Both the position numbers and the translations under genes were made by a program. The notes beneath the pieces were generated by a model, which had not been told where the DNA came from, ran no database searches, and saw only the letters and a list, made by a program, of their open reading frames with translations. A DNA stretch of 64,000 nucleotides, taken from the NCBI RefSeq assembly GCF_009914755.1, contig NC_060930.1; one strand, 5' to 3'. How positions within the stretch are numbered: position 1 is the first letter of the stretch; each line of letters opens with the position of its first letter. Shown in pieces: positions 1 through 9,570 of this stretch. The stretch comes from the human T2T-CHM13v2.0 reference genome, Homo sapiens.

Positions 1-1114
1 TACCCGGTACTTTCTGTAGCTAGCTCCTAATGATTCTTCAAGTTCAGTGCCTCCTCCTTAGAGGGGTTTTCCTTGATCTCCATCTAAATTAGATCTCCTT
101 CTTCCACATTTTCCCTATTCCATATGAACATTAAAACTTCATTCATAAAATAAACATTAACATTACATTGCCGCAGAAGCCAGAATCACTCTGATCACTT
201 ACTACAATCTGTCTTTGGATAGTAATTTGTGTGGTTATTTATTTAATTACTGACTTTTCTACCAAAATAACAGTTCTATTGATAACTGTTATTTTGGCCT
301 GGGGGTCCCCAAGGCCCTTTTAGGGGATACTTAAAGCATTTTGTAAGTCTGATTGCCTTTGCAAGGACCTCAAAGCACAGAATGTGCTTCGGGCTCTCTG
401 TGTATCATGTCTAGAAGAAAAGATATACCAGTTAGACAAGTTGACATATCAACCATCATTTTGAGATATAGTCATAAATGAAATAAAATGATCTTCCTCC
501 AGTTTGCAATGGAAGTGCAATTGTAGTTACTGATATCACAGCCCCAGAAATATCAATGAGGAACAGAACACAGTATAAGACATGAATACCACCAAACGAG
601 TATGTGCAAGGCTAGGAAGGGAGCAATCTGGGTGAGAAGTTTCAAGTGGTGCAGTGCTATTCACTCTCCCCAATAAACCTGTACATTTAAACATTTGCTT
701 TTCCCTATGATATTCTTTATCTGAGTTTCTCTCTCTGTCTCTCTCTCTCTTTTTAAAACTCTGATTTTGAACTACTTGCTCTTATATTTGTATTTGACTT
801 TGCTGCTGTCTTAATTCTCTTTAAGGTCAGTCCTGCCTGACCATTCAGAACACATGTGCCTATCCCTCTCTAATAGTTCCTATTTGCCTACTTAGAATTA
901 GAAATGGTCCTTCTAGAATCAGAGAAGAAAGAGAAAAGATTTAAAAATGAAGTGTAAAATCCATGGTATAAGTTTAATAAGCACGCTGGATGTAAAATAA
1001 ATAGTGGTTGTAAAAAAATGGCTTTGTGGACATCATTTTAGTGTGAAAAGGACTGCAATTTATAGTCTGGACAACTTGCATACCTGCTCCATTACAACAA
1101 TTTAACTGATGAGA

Positions 1115-1560
1115 CATAGTGGGCTGAATGATGACCCCAAAAAGATATGTCCATGATTTAATCCCTGGAGGCTGTGAATATTGTGGCAAAAGATATGATT
1201 AAATTAAGAGAGGAGGAGTTTATCCTGGATTATCCATGTGAGCTCTAAATGTAATCACATGCCTTTTCATAAGAGAGAGTTTTGAGACACACGCCAAGAG
1301 AGAAGAGAGGAGGGGAAAAGGCAAAGTAGCTGCAGTGGCAGGGATCAGGGTGATGTGGTCACAAGCAAAGGAATACCTATAGCCAGAAGAAGCTGAAAAG
1401 GCAAGAATGGATTCTTTTGCAGAGTATCTAGAGGCAGCATGGCCTTGACAATATGTTGATTTCAGACTTCTGAACTCCAGAATTGCGAGAGAATAAACGT
1501 CTGTTGTGTTGTCACCCAATTTGTGGTAATTTGTTATGACAGCCCCAGAAAACTAATAAA
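1115..1560 (+). mobile_element. MaLR solo LTR, MLT1C-like
   Basis: Starts 'tagtgggctgaatgatgaccccaaaaagatatgtcc'; ends with the MLT1 3' motif 'ttgtggtaatttgttatgacagccccagaaaactaata'; AATAAA near 1493. Confidence 0.8.
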
Positions 1561-1699
1561 CAAGATAAACATTAAAGCCACACTATCACATTACTTTTGT
1601 TTTCTTGAGGTTCAATTTGTGTGTGTGTGTGCATGTGTGTGTGCGTGTAATTCAATTGAAGAAATGTGAAGCCCAAATTACATGACACATATGAGTAAA

Positions 1700-2320
1700 G
1701 TCTGAGCAGAGAATATGTGTTATATCTCTTTCCTATAGACACACACATTTATAGTATGTAAGATGCTTCAATTAGCAAAAAGTGTTTTTAATGTTGAGAG
1801 ACCTGTTGATTACACCCATGTAGGCATTAAAACTCCTTTCACAAAATAAATATCCCTTTGAGGCAGAAGGAACCAGCACTCTATGAATGCATAAATTGAA
1901 CGTGATCATGATCATTGTGCTGTAAACATCTGTTTACATTTCCTAGGATCTTGCCATGATTTCCACATTTTGTCTAATTTGTCATGACACCATCTGTTTG
2001 AAGATAGATTGATCACTGGTGGTTGGATTATTGGGTAAGTAGTGCTTATGTTTATTATGATGTACCTAACAATACCTTAAAATTATATTTAATGTGAATT
2101 AATTTTTAGGTGACAGTGGTTATCCCAGAGGTCCCATTTGCTTACAGCAGTGGGAACCACAGTAAAACAAAGATACAATTTTATAATCAGTTGAATACAA
2201 CACATCCCAGAAATAAGATTTCAAAATTCAAGCCTAAACCTCTTTGGATGAAAAAAAGGCTCCATTTTGTACCTTTGATAGGATACACTCCAGAAGTCTT
2301 GTGACCTTGATACTTACCAA
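1700..2320 (+). pseudogene. Fossil PIF/Harbinger DDE transposase fragment (HARBI1-like) with a 75-nt intron at 2035-2109
   Basis: One frame from 1721 reads YISFL*THTFIVCKMLQLAKSVFNVERPVDYTHVGIKTPFTK*ISL*GRRNQHSMNA*IERDHDHCAVNICLHFLGSCHDFHILSNLS*HHLFEDRLITGGW. After a 1-nt shift it reads LLG, then the intron, then DSGYP, followed in shifted frames by HLLT, FYNQ and YTPE. This is collinear with Harbinger motifs YIxFP, GFPNVxGAIDCTHV, NRKxxHSxNVQxxCD, PGSxHD, GWLLGDSGYP, LLTP, RYN and YxPE. Confidence 0.85.
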
Positions 2321-3227
2321 TGACAGAGTTAAGTTGCTGGTTGAGTAAGTATCCATCTGAGCTGTGGCAGAGCCCTGGGCAGCCCCAAGGCTAAGGCTTC
2401 TCAAGTCCTGAGTTTGCTGAGGTGCATTTGTTAACAGAGACCAGTCTTAGATCTATAGGCCACGGTGAGTTTTATCTCAATTTGATATGTTTGAGGGTGT
2501 CTTTTAATCTTTGGAAGTATATTTCTGAAATGTAAAATTTTAAAATACTCTGTTATCAATCAAAGAGTTGCTTTCGATTCTTATGCTAAAATTTTAGGTT
2601 ATTTTAATTCAAATATTAAATTTTTATTTCCTGACCAAATTGATTCTAATAAGACTAAAACTTCTATGCTATTGTAAAACTTGCTATTATAATCTGCTTA
2701 AATTTTTAAGGATTTTTATCCATCCTTTGATCCTACAGTCTTAAGGCTATATGTCTTCATGGACATAATTAAAAATTTACCAAAAATAAATTAATTTTGA
2801 ATAATATCTGTTCAATATGACAACACTTGAAGCTAAGATTCAATGTTACTGTACCATATTCTTTATAGAGATATAGAATTCTAACTGACACATATTAAGC
2901 TGGAATTAAAAGTTTACACACACACACACTCACACACTTGAGCATTATACCAAATGATTATACTTAGCTATTTATTCACCTCAGGTTATAATATCTTCAT
3001 GCTAACCAGCATTAAATTCCCCACCCCTAAATAGTCCACTGAATTTTAAGTGACAGAAATACTTTACAGGCATAATTACAAAGTAAAAAGAGATGGTTAT
3101 GAGCAAACATAGAACTCATTTTTTCAAAACACTGTTGAACTATGCAATTGTAGGTGTTTTTTAACTAGTCAAAATAATTCACCACCATGCCTTAATTCCT
3201 ACTCTACACTCTCTTTGCCATTGCTGC

Positions 3228-3697
3228 TGTAACCCAGGGTCCTGGGGTTTTGGGGTGTACACTCTGAAAAAGTACCCACTTGTAACTCTTACTCCTTGAG
3301 TTCTTGTTTTTTCAAAAAAGTTCCAGGAAGAAGCTCAGTCCATAGATGCCTGAGTTGGAGATAACCTTTGGCAAGTTCCCCTCATTACCATCACCATACT
3401 AAAATCCCCGCCCAGGGAGGTGATTTTTCACCATTTTTTATACATGCAATGTATGTAGAAGCATGATTGGCAACAGTGCCTGAGCTGCCTTTACTCTACC
3501 TCTACAATGACTCAACTCAGCAGCCCAATAAAAGCTCTGTTTTCACAGATGTTCTGGGAGATACCACTTTGGAAACTATCCCTGGTGTCCTCCTTACTTG
3601 TTGAAAGTAATAAAATCCCCTTGTTAAATCCTCCTTGGTTGTGGTCACTGGATTGCCACACACCAAGTGATTAAACCCACCCATAGTGTAGATAACA
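3228..3697 (+). mobile_element. ERV solo LTR (family uncertain)
   Basis: TGTAAC...TAACA termini, ~470 bp, AATAAA in the 3' half, imperfect flanking duplication CTGC/CTAC. Confidence 0.7.
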
Positions 3698-4599
3698 CTA
3701 CCAATAGTAAAATGATATTCTCCCTGCAAACATTATTACCAAATCTATGGTTTGGAGTGCTCCTCCCCTCATGAATTCAGTGAGGATTTGTTCTAACAGC
3801 CAGCATTCCACGTATCCCCATAACCTCCCAGAGCTATGGATGGATATGACCTGTCCATCCAATCCTTCCTCCTCTATTTAGCCCAGCCAAGGACACCTGT
3901 CTCCTTTTAGTTCACAAAGAGTTTTCCATTTGGGGTTGTAAGGTTGAGCTAATCACAATAAAAGAAGATTCTTGTGAAAAAATGAGATTAGGCCTCCCTG
4001 AAATAGCAAGGGAAAAGCCATGTATTTTGTCCCCCGTGTGACAGCTGCTGACATAGACTTGTCTTCCTATGGATACTCGGTAAGGAAGAATCTTCATGAC
4101 TCTTTTTTTCTCACTAGAGATTAAGATGTGAAGAGGAAAAGGATCACATGTTTGGGATCAAGTTGCTGTTCCCAGACTATGTAAATTGTTCTCAGCCATT
4201 CAGTAATAAGGACCAGCCATTCATCTCATTTTAGAGAAAGAATTAGTGAAGTCTAAAGGGAGAGAAAAGCAGGTGTTTCAAGATTTATGTGTGGATGATG
4301 CTAGCTTAAAAGGAAGATCTATTAGGTGCATCACAGCATGGAGATATCAATATGGTAGAGAGGAAGCTGGGATTAAGATAATTTTTTTGTTGTTTTTTAA
4401 TCCAAAGTTCACAAACTGAGCCACCTTGTGAAAGGAGAAACTGGTAGGTAATGTAGAGTGCAACAGAAGTGTTTATTGAGTATGGTCCTTGGATTCTCTG
4501 GGAAGAAAACAAATCCTAAAGAATTAATTTTCCAGGGAGGCCTTGACATAGCTGCTTCAGGAAAGTCATTGCAACATCAGGTTATATGAGTAGGAAAGA

Positions 4600-4905
4600 A
4601 GTTCAGGAGCAACGTATTGTTAATGTTAAGAACATGGATTCAGGAAGCAGGATGTCCAAATTTTCATCCAAGCTTCTACAGTAATTTGCTGAATGTTCAC
4701 AGGTAAGCTATTTTACCACTGATGGCTTCAGTATCCTCAGCAGTAAAACTGGGGCTGGGGAAGGGGCTGTGTGTGGCAGTATTAGAATTTAGGTGTGTGT
4801 GGCAGTGTTATAATTTATCTTCTATGTGTTGTAAAGATTTATGAATATTTTATGTGTCAGATATTTAGCACAGTACCGAAATATAGGTAGCTCTCAGTAG
4901 TTGTT
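4600..4905. mobile_element. MIR fragment (degenerate)
   Basis: MIR-like 'ggcttcagtatcctcagcagtaaaactgggg' and 'atttagcacagtacc...taggtagctctcagta'. Confidence 0.55.
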
Positions 4906-5007
4906 AAAAATTATTTTTATTTGTATTATTATTTTAGGCTAAAAAGGGGAGTTGGGAGTTACTACTGGTTCAATGGTTTGACTAACACTCCTCATGTTGT
5001 CACACGG

Positions 5008-5450
5008 TAAGGGAGGAGACCACCCCTCATATTGTCTTATGCCCAATTTCTGCCTCCAAAGAAAGAAGAAGTAAAAACTAAAAGGCAGAAATGAAATCCA
5101 CAAGCAGACAGTCTGGCGCCACACCCTGGGCCTGGTAGTTAAAGATGGACACCTGACCTAATCGGTTATTTGCATAAGAAAAGCACTGTAAAGATCCCTG
5201 TCCTGTTCTGTTCCGTTCTAATTACCGGTGCATGCAGCCCCCAGTCACGTACCCCCTGCTTGCTCAATCGATCACGACCCTCTCACACGGACCCCCTTAG
5301 AGCTGTGAGCCCTTAAAAGGGACAGGAATTGCTCACTCAGGGACCTCGGTTGTTGGAGATGTGAGTCTTGCTGAAGCTCCCAGCCAAATAAAGCCCCTCC
5401 TTCTCTAACTCGGTGTCTGAGGGGTTTTGTCTGCAGCTTGTCCTGCTACA
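5008..5450 (+). mobile_element. LTR2-family (HERV-E/Harlequin ERV1) solo LTR
   Basis: Diagnostic start TAAGGGAGGAGACCACCCCTCATATTGTCTTATGCCC; end GTCCTGCTACA; 4-bp TSD ACGG (5004-5007) / ATGG (5451-5454), differing by one CpG transition. Confidence 0.9.
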
Positions 5451-6059
5451 ATGGAATTATTATTTTGTTGTAGGGTGGAGAGGGTTTTAATTCTATTATA
5501 TCCTCCATGATTTAGCATGAGCTTAGAGGTTAGACAATGCTTTACATCTGTCCTTGTTCATCTGGGTTCATTACTGAACCAATCTGAGAGTCAGTTACCT
5601 CATCAGTTAAATAAGATAAGTATATAAACTGCCCAACACTTAGTAGGGATTCAGTATTGTTTATTTTCATGCATCCTTCCTCTCAACTTTGTACTTATAC
5701 TAAGAAAAAGTAATAGCAAGTGACAGAAGCCACAACAATAGAATCTTAGAAATAGAAAAATGTTTGTGCTTGGACCAATCTACATGCTAAATAGCTACAA
5801 CTTCTTAGGCTCTCAGTAAATTGTGGTTCCTTGGGGAGCAGCCTAGGCTACTTAAGGTTAATCACTGGTGCTTAGAGTTAATTGTTATCAATCTGTTTTT
5901 CAAAGGCTGCTCTGCTGGAGTTTCCATACATAGCAATCAGTTCCAACAGCAGCTCCAGGCCTAAATGAGTTCTTCTAATACTTTTCCCATAATCAATTTT
6001 CAAAAATATATCAAACACAGTAAAAAATAGACCTCAACATTAAACTTGTCATCTAGTAT

Positions 6060-6202
6060 GTAGTGTTTCAAACACGAGAGTGCATCAGCATCGCCTAGAG
6101 GGCTTGTTAAAACACGTTGCTGGACCTCAACCTCAAAATTTCTGATTCAGCATGTCTGGAGTGGGAGCAAACCCAACTGCTACTGATGCTGCTGCTCCTG
6201 GA
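6060..6202. mobile_element. MER5A hAT DNA transposon remnant
   Basis: 'gcatcagcatcgcctagagggcttgttaaaacac...ttctgattcagca...tgatgctgctgctcc' resembles MER5A with an internal deletion. Confidence 0.7.
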
Positions 6203-6559
6203 AAAGGAAAAAAGTTTTTAGGGTTTGTAGAATTTGTAAAGAAGCAAGGGCGATAAGCGTATCTCTTTTGAGGGTTCTAACTTGACTAAAATTGACCAGC
6301 TTCTTTGTCATTACCAAGCATTCACTGCCACCCATGCACTGCTACTCACACAGCCCATCTCTTCTACAGCCTTTTCAACTCTTTCTACATGACCTATCAG
6401 GTTGCTTCTTTGCTCATGGAAGAATATGAGTCGAAATCATTTCTAAAGCAGAGGTACGTGCCCAGAAGCTCTCTTCTTCTCTGGACTGTCCAATCTCAGA
6501 GCTTCATGGTCCCCTTGGCCATCTGCACCTTAAACTTTGGGGTTCATCACCTCTGATCC

Positions 6560-7058
6560 TGTAGTCTTAAACAGAGATGCATTTTTTTCAGAGAGTGGAG
6601 GCATAACCAAGATTGCCTTACTGTTACCCTCCACTTAACTAATTTTTCCCTTTTCTTAGAGCATTTAAAATGGAAAATTTTTCTCTGACTCTTTGAGATG
6701 TAAATCTATAAGCCAGAAAGGTCTTTCTCAAGGACCTAGGAGCCATCCCTTTGAAATGCAGTCATTAAGAGAAACAGTGCCCCTATCTCCCTATCTGGGA
6801 GAGTAGGAGCCTAACTTTGACAAGCACCAATTAGCAAGCAAAATGGCCATATCACATTAGCCAACCTCCCTCCTAAGGTCTTCCAGGTACTTTTTCCTTT
6901 AGCTCACCCCAGCATTCAAAAGTTCTCTTGCCTTTTGTTTTAGCAGAGTTGAGCTCACTTTCTTTCACAGATTGCAACAGACTTGACCCCTATTACAATA
7001 GTCTTGAATAAAATCTTCCTTGCCTCTTAACTCTGTCCAGTGCAATTTTCCTTTGACA
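6560..7058 (+). mobile_element. ERV1 solo LTR, MER34/MER39-like
   Basis: 'tctcaaggacctaggagccatccctttgaaatg' and 'gtaggagcctaacttt'; AATAAA at ~7007; ends TTGACA. The start is approximate. Confidence 0.65.
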
Positions 7059-9570
7059 GGAGACTCTCCCTTTCTGACTTGGATGAATTTGTCCCTTCTC
7101 TGATTTATTGAACAAGCCTGTTTCTTGCTCTCAACTCTCACCTACATTTCTGTTTAGTTGTTCCTGAATTTGAGCTTGAGATGCTCAAGACTTCATCCCA
7201 GCTACTAAATAAGGAGACAGATTCCATGGCACATTTTAGCATTTGGGGCCACAGCACCAGTCTCCTGATGGCATAATGAGATCACGGCATATCCCATAAA
7301 TATTGCATGCTTTTCTGGCCGTCAGTGCCAGGCCCTGATAACACAAAGACAAATAATGTGGCCCCTTCTTCTGGTTGTAAAATATATTTCCCTGGAGTGG
7401 TGGAGAATAATACTATACCCAAACGCTATGTCCAGGTAGACTAGCTGTTTGTAAGAGGAAGGTGACTACATACTCTGACTTCCCTGATAAACAGAAGGCA
7501 AAGAACAACTTGAGAAACTGGCTCAACCACTTATCTGGATGGGAAGAGTGACTAAAGACTGAGAAAGTATCTACCTTCACTGGCAGCCAGTCATTGATTC
7601 TGTACGAGGCTTTCTGATTATTCCCTAATACTAAGGTGATCTTATAATTTATCAGCCTATTGTGACACTTTTGAGAAGAATGGCATGCTACTAAACACAC
7701 TGGGACAACACATATAAACAGAACTATCATGAACAAAATTGGATTTAGGATAATCTTATCTGATACCAACCATGAAGACATTTGTAATAAGTAGTGATGA
7801 GGGAGGTGGTTCGTTTCTATCCTCACCAGTGCTCATACACTCACAGACAAACACAGAGCCATGAATAATGTAAACTCAGGTCTCATTTCAGGATAATGTA
7901 AACATTAGGAGGACACCCCTTATATATACCCCTGAGGAACCCACAGCTTCAATCCCTGTGTGGCAAAGGTCCTACTGGGCTTTCTTTCTCATGCCTCCAT
8001 ATGTACGTACCTCCTTTAATCTCTTTTGAACACTGAAAGCCCCACCTCCTCTTCAATCGCAGCCCCTCTGACCTATACTTTATTACAGATGGTGAGGAAA
8101 GGTAGTCTGGGCCCAGGAAAAATATCTAAAGAAGAATGAAAAGAAAATGGTGGAAGATTGGCCATTTCACATTGTCAGTTTAATTTCCTGCCTGTTTATC
8201 TTTGAGCATTACTTAAATGGAGTCTCTTTTTCTAAATCTGAGTCACATTATAAATCTCTCTCTTCTATTAGCTCAGCCTGGAAAAATCCTAACCTGGAGG
8301 AGGGAAAGGGGTTATCACCACCACCTACCCTCCCCACCTTAGTCTGAAATTTCCCTTGACTCTCAGAAGAGGTCAAAGCAGCACTGATACAAGCTCTGTG
8401 TTCCTCCCAGGGTATGTGCAAATACGAACTTATTAATTCTGTCCTCATTTTTGTTGAGCTGTAAAAACTACTTAATATATGGCTTTGTTTTCTTATTCAA
8501 TGATTCAATTATCTTGCCTAGTGTAGATCACTAGAAGTGGATGTCATTTCATCCATTTTCCCAGCACCGAGTAATGGGCAGAGGGTCCTGAGTATCAGGA
8601 CCTCTGAATAAATGGCTGATGTTCTTTCCTAAAAAGCTATTGAGACTGGCTCAGACAGTCAGACTTTCACAAATCTGAGACTGGGAGAAAGTGCTTGCTT
8701 TGCAGAAGCCACTAGAAGCATGGGACTATATAGTGATCTCAGCAAAGGTGCCAACATCAGTAAGCCAGGACAAGAAGCTGTGTAGAGAGGAGGGCTGGGT
8801 AAAGCTCTCAGTACCCAGAGTACCGTGGCAGTTAATCTGAAGGCCACAGAAGTATAATCATGGGTTTAGTGGGCAAGTGAGCCAATAGTTCAGAGCAAAT
8901 GCCAGAGGCTCGGATTTTCTTATAGTTGGTTACCTAGGGGCTTCTGCCCAAGCCACGAAGATAAGCTCCCGCTTTCAAATGACGAGAGATACAGCAACAT
9001 TATTGTCTGTTAAAATCATCAAAACTCTTCCCATTTTCAGGATTAAGCCAGCAAACACCATAGCTCAGCACTCAGTTACATCATGTCCTAACCAAATTTT
9101 CTAGACTCTTGGTCTTTTCCCGTGCATTCACTCAGTACTCCAAGAATGTTGGTCTACTCAAGTTTTTTTAAATAAGCTACTTTTTTTTAATTGCCCTATG
9201 ACTTTGTCTATGCAAAGCCTTAATTAACTTCCACGAATCTGAAAGCTTGCAATAGCTATTGCACTATTTTTTTACCAAAATGTGTTGGTGTCTATAAGGT
9301 GCTTGATAAGATGAATTCACTAAATCCATGAATGCTGCTGTTGCTTCCTGCACTGTGTATATTCTGAGTCCTGAATGGTCAAATCCATGTATGTTTCATC
9401 TTTGATCAGGATTTCTGTTGCAGTTCTATCCCATGACACCATAATTACTATTTGTAGAGCTACTTTTACTCCTGGACTGGGAGATTTTGGGTGGAAGAGA
9501 CAATGATTATTCTGTGTGATGGTTGATTTTGTGTGTCAACTTGACTAGGCCAAATAACTGGTTAAATATT

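What the first reader, a model, noticed from the sequence alone, without database searches (positions are those of the whole stretch)
1700..2320. Fossil PIF/Harbinger transposase in human intergenic DNA
Seen: ~100 consecutive codons in one frame (1721-2026, five stops, no frameshift) carry VDYTHVGIKTP, RRNQHSMNA*IERD, FLGSCHDFHILSN and GGW. After one inserted base come LLG^DSGYP, then HLLT, YNQ and YTPE in shifted frames. Known: this is the order and spacing of the Harbinger/HARBI1 catalytic core (IDCTH, NRKxxHSxN, PGSxHD, WLLGDSGYP), and all three acidic positions are still Asp. In humans this superfamily is known mainly from the domesticated HARBI1 gene and rare, very old repeats. Inference: either a relic of an ancient autonomous Harbinger or a dead domesticated transposase gene (unitary pseudogene). 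The ORF track misses it because of the stops.
Basis: partly seen in the sequence, partly recalled or inferred. Interest (0 to 1): 0.9.

Follow-up and report, generated by a model that had tools for sequence, protein, structure and literature searches.

The report
Decayed Harbinger transposase gene fossil
This stretch of human chromosome 6 is the dead, stop-riddled remnant of a Harbinger-type "jumping gene" enzyme, one of at least ten such remnants in the genome, and is real but ordinary.

Summary
Window 1790-2035 (+) reads as 82 codons of the first half of a PIF/Harbinger transposase core (DDE_Tnp_4), gapless against the family, with 4 stops. A 75-nt intron relic follows (2035-2109, GTAAGT...TTTTTAG), then G|DSGYP and about 30 more frameshifted codons, to about 2205.

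The match is far beyond chance. There are 37 hits at E<=1e-3 among 1.84 billion proteins, and 36 of them carry PF13359. My own profile scores 82.6 bits here against 25.3 for the next best place in the window.

The intron lies at the same codon and phase as the HARBI1 intron (WLLG|DS). In a tree, however, the fossil falls outside the HARBI1 clade (100/99), among transposase-like proteins of amphibians and fishes.

The locus is not unique. A sturgeon Harbinger transposase finds HARBI1 plus 15 decayed loci in this genome, this one included.

I found no N-terminal part, no Myb-like gene and no terminal inverted repeats. Motifs after about 2205 are not above chance.

Best reading: a neutral fossil of an ancient autonomous Harbinger transposon (0.62). 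The main rival is a dead, once-domesticated gene (0.25). Human RepeatMasker annotation already has a PIF-Harbinger class, so novelty is low. Orthology depth and the Dfam annotation of this locus could not be checked.

The parts
1790..2034 (+). Exon relic encoding the first half of the transposase catalytic core. Motifs in order: VDYTHV, RRNQHSMN, ERD, FLGSCHD, GGW(a)LLG. It has 4 in-frame stops and one surplus base near its 3' end (a2027, or a g of 2033-2035). Weaker similarity may reach back to about 1763.
   Evidence: Pfam DDE_Tnp_4 profile 1-78, E 9.6e-4. HARBI1 exon ORF aligns to 1805-2035 over 77 aa without gaps, E 9.5e-5. All 37 phmmer hits align here, with starts at 1763-1805. Own profile scores 82.6 bits against 25.3 for the next best place.
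2035..2109 (+). 75-nt intron relic: GTAAGT donor, T-rich tract, TTTTTAG acceptor. It sits at the same codon (WLLG|DS) and, with a2027 as the surplus base, in the same phase 1 as the 12-kb intron of human HARBI1.
   Evidence: Window sequence. HARBI1 junctions read directly: ctg g|gtaagt and cacag|gt gac agt. PF13359 is split 1-80 / 79-158 over two HARBI1 exons.
2110..2205 (+). Start of the second exon relic: (G)DSGYP at 2110-2126, then after two frameshifts RSHLLTAV (2129-2152) and NHSKTKIQFYNQLNTTH (2155-2205).
   Evidence: Path from the frameshift-tolerant profile alignment. It scores 21.3 bits, reached by 0 of 1230 control tiles. 6 of the 37 proteins hit 2106-2135 by tblastn.
2206..2295 (+). 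Possible further decayed exon 2 (..RNKISKFK..GYTPE). Not distinguishable from chance.
   Evidence: It lies on the best path. But profile 210-285 against 2127-2345 gives 13.8 bits, reached by 223 of 572 tiles.

Best explanation
The locus is a dead remnant of the transposase gene of a PIF/Harbinger DNA transposon. What survives is the exon for the first half of the DDE_Tnp_4 catalytic core, a short intron, and the first 30 or so codons of the next exon.

Most likely an autonomous Harbinger element inserted here in a distant ancestor of mammals. It lost activity and has since decayed neutrally, through stops, frameshifts, and loss or erosion of its ends and of its N-terminal and Myb-like parts. 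It has no present function.

Shown: homology, motif order, intron position, exclusion from the HARBI1 clade, and the existence of many similar relics in the genome. Inferred: that it was a mobile copy rather than a host gene, and its age. From 4-5 stops in about 100 codons I estimate very roughly 0.2-0.5 substitutions per site, which would put it at 100 million years or more.
For: Homology:
- 37 phmmer hits at E<=1e-3 among 1.84e9 proteins, of which 36 carry PF13359 above the cut-off.
- Own profile scores 82.6 bits at 1790-2035 against 25.3 for the next best tile.
- A sturgeon transposase (P0142) finds this locus in the whole genome at E 5.2e-6.

Transposon rather than HARBI1:
- HARBI1 orthologues (9 rows) form a clade at 100/99 that excludes this relic and 10 other human relics.
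- The nearest intact proteins are multi-copy 'putative nuclease HARBI1' proteins of frogs, caecilians, a newt, sturgeon and fishes.

Not unique:
- P0142 finds 17 places at E<=1. Two are the HARBI1 exons and 15 are other loci, of which 12 have stops inside the match.
- tblastn of P0142 shows Harbinger motifs in all 15.

Gene structure:
- The intron is only 75 nt, at the HARBI1 position.
- A second relic on chr5 also has a gap, of 138 nt, between the two halves of the core.
- 5 of the 37 predicted proteins break off right after WL[LV]G.

No other copy of this DNA was found in the genome. The same tool found 1074 candidates at 70-83% identity for the neighbouring repeat, so any sister copies are too old to see as DNA.
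Against: - No terminal inverted repeats.
- No Myb-like second gene or any other Pfam domain in six frames of window 1-8000.
- No N-terminal transposase part in the window or in the 10 kb upstream.
- No other human relic is sister to this one in the tree.
- The 82 codons of exon 1 have no indel against the family, although they carry 4 stops. That is fewer indels than I would expect (recalled indel-to-substitution ratio of about 1:8-10) after long neutral decay.
- The Pfam score is below the curated cut-off.
- An unnamed 52-aa predicted protein (P0123) is its sister on a long shared stem of 1.3-1.55. This fits an orthologous relic in another genome, but it would also fit a once-conserved gene.
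Confidence: 0.62

Rival explanations
1. Unitary pseudogene. The locus is the remnant of a second, once-domesticated Harbinger transposase gene (separate from HARBI1). Selection kept it in earlier tetrapods or amniotes and it was lost on the lineage to humans.
For: - The anole genome holds five intact, mutually divergent Harbinger-derived ORFs without TIR/TSD, which their authors read as domesticated (PMC3014272, passages read).
- This DNA is single copy in the genome.
- Exon 1 has no indel over 82 codons.
- There is a long shared stem with P0123, whose 52 codons are open.
- No TIRs and no Myb-like gene were found.
- Its weakly supported neighbours in the tree include proteins that have lost core residues, such as GSCHN and VVNCTH.
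Against: - At least 10 further relics of the same superfamily lie scattered in the genome. That many is more easily explained by transposition than by many lost genes.
- The intron is very short (75 nt), while the conserved host gene HARBI1 has 12 kb there.
- No further exons were found within 12 kb upstream.
- At this age, the absence of TIRs says little either way.
Confidence: 0.25
2. A pseudogene copy of HARBI1 itself, made by segmental duplication or retrocopying.
For: The intron position and acceptor sequence (ag|GTGACAGT) are the same as in HARBI1. HARBI1 is the best intact relative within the human genome (E 0.023).
Against: - It is only 28.6% identical to HARBI1, against 30-37% to other transposases with higher scores.
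- It lies outside the HARBI1 clade, which has 100/99 support.
- It keeps GSCHD and DSGYP where HARBI1 has GSLQD and DSSFF.
- It has an intron, so it is not a retrocopy.
Confidence: 0.02
3. The relic has been taken over as a non-coding functional element, for example part of an enhancer landscape in this gene desert, and constraint on the DNA explains its good register.
For: Exon 1 has no indels despite stops. RefSeq enhancer marks lie 2.6 kb downstream (4927-7295, hub annotation).
Against: No functional mark overlaps 1790-2210 in the annotation given. Exon 2 does show frameshifts and loses signal within 100 nt. No conservation data could be consulted. This reading is compatible with either origin and does not replace them.
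Confidence: 0.08
4. Chance resemblance in AT-rich intergenic DNA.
For: The Pfam score is below the gathering cut-off. Five stops in 105 codons is about the density of random sequence.
Against: - The best E-value is 1.2e-10, with 37 hits at E<=1e-3 in 1.84e9 proteins.
- Own profile scores 82.6 bits against at most 25.3 in 320 tiles.
- GDSGYP follows in the right place; the window's six frames hold no other copy of it.
Confidence: 0.01

Closest known systems
HARBI1 (human chr11, domesticated Harbinger transposase gene)
   Same: Same domain (DDE_Tnp_4) and the same motif order. The intron is at the same codon, WLLG|DS, with the same acceptor context ag|GTGACAGT.
   Different: - HARBI1 is intact and conserved from fishes to mammals (one search lists orthologues; PMC9392472, passages read).
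- The relic has stops and frameshifts and is 28.6% identical to HARBI1.
- It keeps GSCHD and DSGYP, which HARBI1 has changed.
- It lies outside the HARBI1 clade.
- Its intron is 75 nt against about 12 kb.
Multi-copy Harbinger transposases of amphibians and fishes, labelled 'putative nuclease HARBI1' (for example P0124 Hyperolius, P0142 Acipenser, P0138 Microcaecilia)
   Same: These are the best-scoring intact relatives: 30-37% identity over 77-84 aa, gapless, with WLLGDSGYP.
   Different: They are open reading frames of 220-390 aa with the N-terminal domain and the full second half. The relic keeps only about 115 recognisable codons. No named family (Repbase/Dfam) could be assigned with the tools at hand.
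Human repeats classed DNA/PIF-Harbinger by RepeatMasker/Dfam
   Same: Same superfamily, also old and rare. A T2T study lists PIF-Harbinger among 44 annotated TE families (PMC13732488, one passage read).
   Different: - I could not see whether this locus is covered or which families exist. The family name AmnHarb1 is recalled only, and 0 papers hold it.
- The 2018 Repbase review says Harbinger traces had not been found as repeats in the human genome (PMC5753468, passages read).
- The hub's list of the longest masked stretches does not include this place.
Five intact Harbinger-derived ORFs of Anolis carolinensis
   Same: Harbinger transposase descendants in an amniote genome, without TIR/TSD (PMC3014272, passages read).
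   Different: Those are open frames of 442-466 aa, taken by their authors as domesticated genes. The relation of any of them to this locus was not tested, because their sequences were not at hand.

Membership tests
PIF/Harbinger transposase (Pfam DDE_Tnp_4, PF13359) | Match to the family profile at the curated cut-off (24.8 bits) | tested here: inconclusive
   The score is 19.2 bits, E 9.6e-4, over profile 1-78 of 158. That is below the cut-off, but only half the domain lies in one frame and 4 codons are stops. In the whole-genome family search this locus was not among the 3 matches listed.
PIF/Harbinger transposase (Pfam DDE_Tnp_4, PF13359) | Significant homology to proteins that are members | tested here: met
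   37 hits at E<=1e-3 of 1.84e9 proteins, and 36 of the 37 carry PF13359 above the cut-off. A member protein, P0142, finds the locus genome-wide at E 5.2e-6.
PIF/Harbinger transposase (Pfam DDE_Tnp_4, PF13359) | Conserved motifs in family order and spacing (DxTH, NRKxxHSxN, CD, PGSxHD, WLLGDxGYP) | tested here: met
   The alignment to 37 intact family proteins and two other relic fragments is gapless over 82 codons. The relic reads DYTH, RRNQHSMN, RD, LGSCHD and W(a)LLG|DSGYP.
PIF/Harbinger transposase (Pfam DDE_Tnp_4, PF13359) | Complete acidic triad (Asp, Asp, Glu; recalled definition) | tested here: not met
   The Asp of DxTH and of GDSGYP are present. The nearly invariant Glu (E270 in A1) aligns to Ser on a path that is not above chance. 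As a broken relic it cannot be an active enzyme anyway.
Autonomous Harbinger transposon (element level) | Terminal inverted repeats and 3-bp TTA/TAA target duplication | tested here: not met
   No credible inverted pair brackets the relic within window 1-6000. The only arms that bracket it closely are (TG)n/(CA)n microsatellites at 1618-1650 and 2914-2937. At this degree of decay, absence is expected.
Autonomous Harbinger transposon (element level) | Second gene for a Myb-like/SANT DNA-binding protein beside the transposase | tested here: not met
   A Pfam scan of six frames of window 1-8000 finds only DDE_Tnp_4. The 10 kb upstream was scanned only with the transposase profile.
Autonomous Harbinger transposon (element level) | Further copies in the genome | tested here: inconclusive
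   There is no DNA-level copy (the control shows the tool sees 70-83% identity). At protein level there are 14 other decayed Harbinger loci, but none is sister to this one.
HARBI1 orthogroup or a copy of it | Groups with HARBI1 in a tree | tested here: not met
   The HARBI1 clade has 100/99 support and excludes the relic. The tree has 82 columns and 40 or 49 rows.
Domesticated transposase gene (criteria as used in PMC9710019, passages read) | Intact reading frame | tested here: not met
   There are five stops in 1721-2035 and at least two frameshifts after 2126.
Domesticated transposase gene (criteria as used in PMC9710019, passages read) | Orthologs in conserved synteny with conserved exon structure and dN/dS below 1 in other lineages | not testable with these tools
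   No vertebrate genomes other than the window's own are held. P0123 is the only possible ortholog seen, and only as 52 aa without DNA.

The most novel reading that the evidence does not exclude
The locus is the human grave of a second Harbinger-derived host gene. On this reading it was a transposase-like gene domesticated in early tetrapods or amniotes, with living relatives such as the intact anole ORFs or the unnamed proteins nearest to it in the tree. It would have been kept in frame for a long time, which would explain the long shared stem with P0123 and the lack of indels in 82 codons. It would then have been lost on the mammalian or primate lineage, making it a unitary pseudogene rather than transposon debris.
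Probability: 0.2. Interest if true: 0.5.

Novelty: new member of a known kind. Interest (0 to 1): 0.3.

Why it matters
The locus shows that the lineage leading to humans once carried Harbinger transposons, or genes derived from them, other than HARBI1. It also shows that HARBI1's single coding intron sits where a short intron sits in such relics, which suggests the intron was inherited from the transposon.

This is a small piece of transposon palaeontology. It may help curators, since the 2018 Repbase review says no Harbinger repeats were known in human (PMC5753468). It changes no major question. Only if comparative data showed it to be a lost host gene would it add a case of gain and loss of a domesticated transposase.

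Tried and rejected
- Solved structures: a phmmer search with the relic found only chance hits, E 1.5 and above.
- N-terminal part: a search with profile positions 1-118 found nothing above background, in the window or in 10 kb upstream.
- Other domains: a Pfam scan of six frames of 1-8000 found none.
- Second half of the core as a whole: profile 205-282 gave 18.4 bits, rank 39 of 320 tiles. An earlier, better-looking score of 24.4 bits (1 of 500 tiles, 3 of 1000 shuffles) included 'FLG', which is read from the intron's T-rich tract and acceptor. I do not rely on it.
- DNA comparison of this relic with the chr5 and chr10 relics: only a 23-nt match at GSCHD, so a common family could not be shown at DNA level.
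- TIR search: nothing usable.
- Name and source of the sister protein P0123: a search returned only P0123 itself, with no name. I did not pursue it.
- Family name AmnHarb1, recalled from memory: 0 papers.
The own genome cannot be searched with an alignment, so I used one protein instead. Sinzelle et al. 2008 is not held under the id I tried.

Full report
**What is there**

The window is T2T-CHM13 chr6:94,054,001-94,118,000. The motifs VDYTHVGIKTP, RRNQHSMNA*IERD, FLGSCHDFHILSN and GGW appear in that order, with five stops and no frameshift up to 2035.

The DNA then reads tgg a tta ttg g|gtaagt ... tttttag|gt gac agt ggt tat ccc. Reading straight on gives WIIG with a surplus g instead. Either way one base is in excess.

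The spacer is 75 nt. It starts with GTAAGT and ends with a T-run and AG, so it looks like a short intron.

**Is it more than chance?**

Pfam alone is marginal. DDE_Tnp_4 (PF13359) scores E 9.6e-4 and 19.2 bits over profile 1-78 of 158, under the curated 24.8 bits. The genome-wide family search did not list this locus among its 3 matches.

Other tests are decisive:
- A phmmer search of the 105-residue read-through (X at stops) against 1,835,955,588 proteins gave 37 hits at E<=1e-3, the best at 1.2e-10.
- 36 of those 37 carry PF13359 above the cut-off. The exception is the 52-aa top hit, P0123.
- All 37 align to 1763/1805-2035 in one frame by tblastn.
- I built a profile from 24 natural proteins: 17 of these hits plus 7 HARBI1 orthologues. 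I ran it as a frameshift-tolerant scan over both strands of the window. The core part scores 82.6 bits ending at 2035, and the next best place scores 25.3. The profile is partly built from proteins chosen for similarity to this locus, so I lean on the phmmer E-values for significance and on the profile for anatomy.
- Independently, the sturgeon transposase P0142 finds the locus in the whole 3.1-Gb genome at E 5.2e-6.

**The part after the spacer**

GDSGYP occurs once in the 127,996 six-frame positions of the window, at this spot. A relaxed pattern drawn from the family alignment occurs 4 times.

The best path is (G)DSGYP, frameshift, RSHLLTAV, frameshift, NHSKTKIQ-FYNQLNTTH, and further on ...GYTPE. 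Controls give a mixed picture:
- Profile 204-240 against 2109-2210 gives 21.3 bits, reached by 0 of 1230 control tiles.
- Everything after DSGYP taken alone gives 13.8 bits, reached by 223 of 572 tiles.
- Profile 205-282 gives 18.4 bits, rank 39 of 320.

So the second exon is supported for about 30 codons. A score of 24.4 bits that I first obtained included 'FLG' read from the acceptor region, and I discount it.

The family's nearly invariant Glu of the second half (E270 in alignment A1) is not recoverable.

**The intron**

In the human genome PF13359 matches HARBI1 in two pieces, profile 1-80 and 79-158, which lie 12 kb apart. Read directly, HARBI1 has ...tgg ctt ctg g|gtaagt and ...cacag|gt gac agt.... 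That is an intron in phase 1 between WLLG and DS.

The relic's spacer sits at the same codon, with the same acceptor context (ag|GTGACAGT).

Three further observations fit an intron here:
- The tblastn alignment to the HARBI1 exon ends exactly at this point.
- Five of the 37 predicted proteins stop matching the family right after WL[LV]G (P0125, P0131, P0149, P0153, P0155). This fits an exon end there in many vertebrate copies, though that is an inference.
- The chr5 relic shows a 138-nt gap between the two halves of the core. Another relic, on chr1 at 243.3 Mb, shows none.

The presence of an intron rules out a retrocopy.

**Relatives**

The relic is 28.6% identical to HARBI1 over 77 aa. It scores higher, at 30-37% identity, with other proteins. 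Those that bear names are 'putative nuclease HARBI1' entries present in many copies in frogs, caecilians, a newt, sturgeon and teleosts, with more distant ones in ticks and molluscs.

I built trees on 82 columns:
- The 9 HARBI1 orthologues form a clade at 100/99 that excludes the relic (40 rows) and all 11 human relics (49 rows).
- The relic pairs with P0123 at 100/99, on a long stem (1.3-1.55) with short tips (0.44-0.46 and 0.27-0.28).
- Deeper placement is weakly supported. The columns are few and several relic rows are long, so I claim only the two starred results.

P0123 is unnamed. It is known from 2 contigs of at most 5440 bp, and it ends at the same exon end. It may be the same relic in another genome, or a close family member. 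I did not pursue its source.

**Not a unique relic**

The DNA of 1700-2320 has no second copy in the genome. The same tool found 1074 candidates at 70-83% identity for the repeat just upstream, so its reach is adequate.

At protein level, P0142 finds 17 places at E<=1. Two are the HARBI1 exons and 15 are further loci:
- On chr1: 72.2, 186.8, 239.8 and 243.3 Mb.
- On chr2: 145.7 and 177.2 Mb.
- On chr5: 41.9, 91.9, 107.7 and 139.1 Mb.
- On chr6: 92.1 Mb and this one.
- On chr10 (31.7 Mb), chr11 (93.2 Mb) and chrX (26.5 Mb).

Twelve of the 15 have stops inside the match. tblastn of P0142 shows recognisable Harbinger motifs in all 15, 13 of them with stops in the alignment. The tool scores only its best candidates, so this is a lower bound. 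None of these loci is sister to the window's relic.

**What is missing**

- No N-terminal transposase part, in the window or in the 10 kb upstream.
- No Myb-like or other Pfam domain in six frames of 1-8000.
- No terminal inverted repeats.

A high-copy interspersed repeat occupies about 1300-1566. It may have separated or replaced upstream parts.

**Explanation**

The locus is a dead Harbinger-superfamily transposase gene fragment. I put 0.62 on a decayed autonomous transposon copy. The reasons are the many scattered relics, the tiny intron, the placement among multi-copy transposases, and the absence of anything gene-like around it.

I put 0.25 on a lost domesticated gene. Three points keep this alive:
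- The anole genome carries five intact Harbinger-derived ORFs without TIR/TSD (PMC3014272, passages read).
- Exon 1 is free of indels over 82 codons despite 4 stops.
- The stem shared with P0123 is long.

The age is only a rough inference. Four to five stops in about 100 codons suggest about 0.2-0.5 substitutions per site, which would mean 100 million years or more. The substitution-to-stop and indel ratios behind this are recalled values, not computed here.

**Known or new**

- The Repbase review of 2018 says Harbinger had not been found as repeats in the human genome and is known there through HARBI1 (PMC5753468, passages read).
- A 2026 T2T study lists PIF-Harbinger among the 44 TE families of the RepeatMasker annotation (PMC13732488, one passage read).
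- HARBI1, NAIF1 and the MSANTD genes are the described human Harbinger derivatives (PMC9392472, passages read).
- My literature searches turned up no description of this locus or of the set of relics. These searches cover open-access text only. Kapitonov and Jurka 2004 and Sinzelle et al. 2008 could not be read.

I therefore file it as a new member of a known kind, possibly already annotated, with low to moderate interest.

Noticed in passing
L015-L029 (own genome: chr1:72.2, 186.8, 239.8, 243.3 Mb; chr2:145.7, 177.2 Mb; chr5:41.9, 91.9, 107.7, 139.1 Mb; chr6:92.1 Mb; chr10:31.7 Mb; chr11:93.2 Mb; chrX:26.5 Mb): Fourteen further decayed Harbinger-transposase-like loci turned up in the human genome with a single sturgeon query (E 4.8e-11 to 0.9). 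Some keep N-terminal parts (chr2:145.7 Mb, chr6:92.1 Mb) and some keep the C-terminal half (chr10:31.7 Mb, 83 bits with my profile). Nine of ten group loosely with sturgeon and amphibian transposases, apart from the window's relic.
   Followed up: partly
L015 (= L004) 1539-1918, chr5:91.94 Mb: This relic scores 88.8 bits for the first core half and 40.0 bits for the second, with 138 nt between them. The gap reaches from about profile position 188 to 207 and spans the position of the HARBI1 intron. The relic on chr1 at 243.3 Mb shows no such gap.
   Followed up: partly
P0123 (unnamed 52-aa predicted protein): It is 55-57% identical to window 1883-2035 and ends at the same exon end. It is the starred sister of the relic on a long shared stem. 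It may be the orthologous relic in another genome, picked up as a short ORF. Its source is unnamed and was not pursued.
   Followed up: partly
window 1300-1566: A high-copy interspersed repeat lies 220 nt upstream of the relic (1074 first-look candidates, 40 scored, 70-83% identity). From memory it resembles the 3' part of a MaLR-type LTR, but no tool here can name it.
   Followed up: partly
window 1618-1650 and 2914-2937: A (TG)n and a (CA)n microsatellite bracket the relic as an apparent inverted repeat. I take this as coincidence of simple repeats, not as transposon ends.
   Followed up: no
P0149 (556 aa): This predicted protein joins the first half of a Harbinger transposase core, up to GGWLLG, to a PNGase PAW domain. 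It is either an exon-capture fusion or a gene-model artefact at the same intron position.
   Followed up: no
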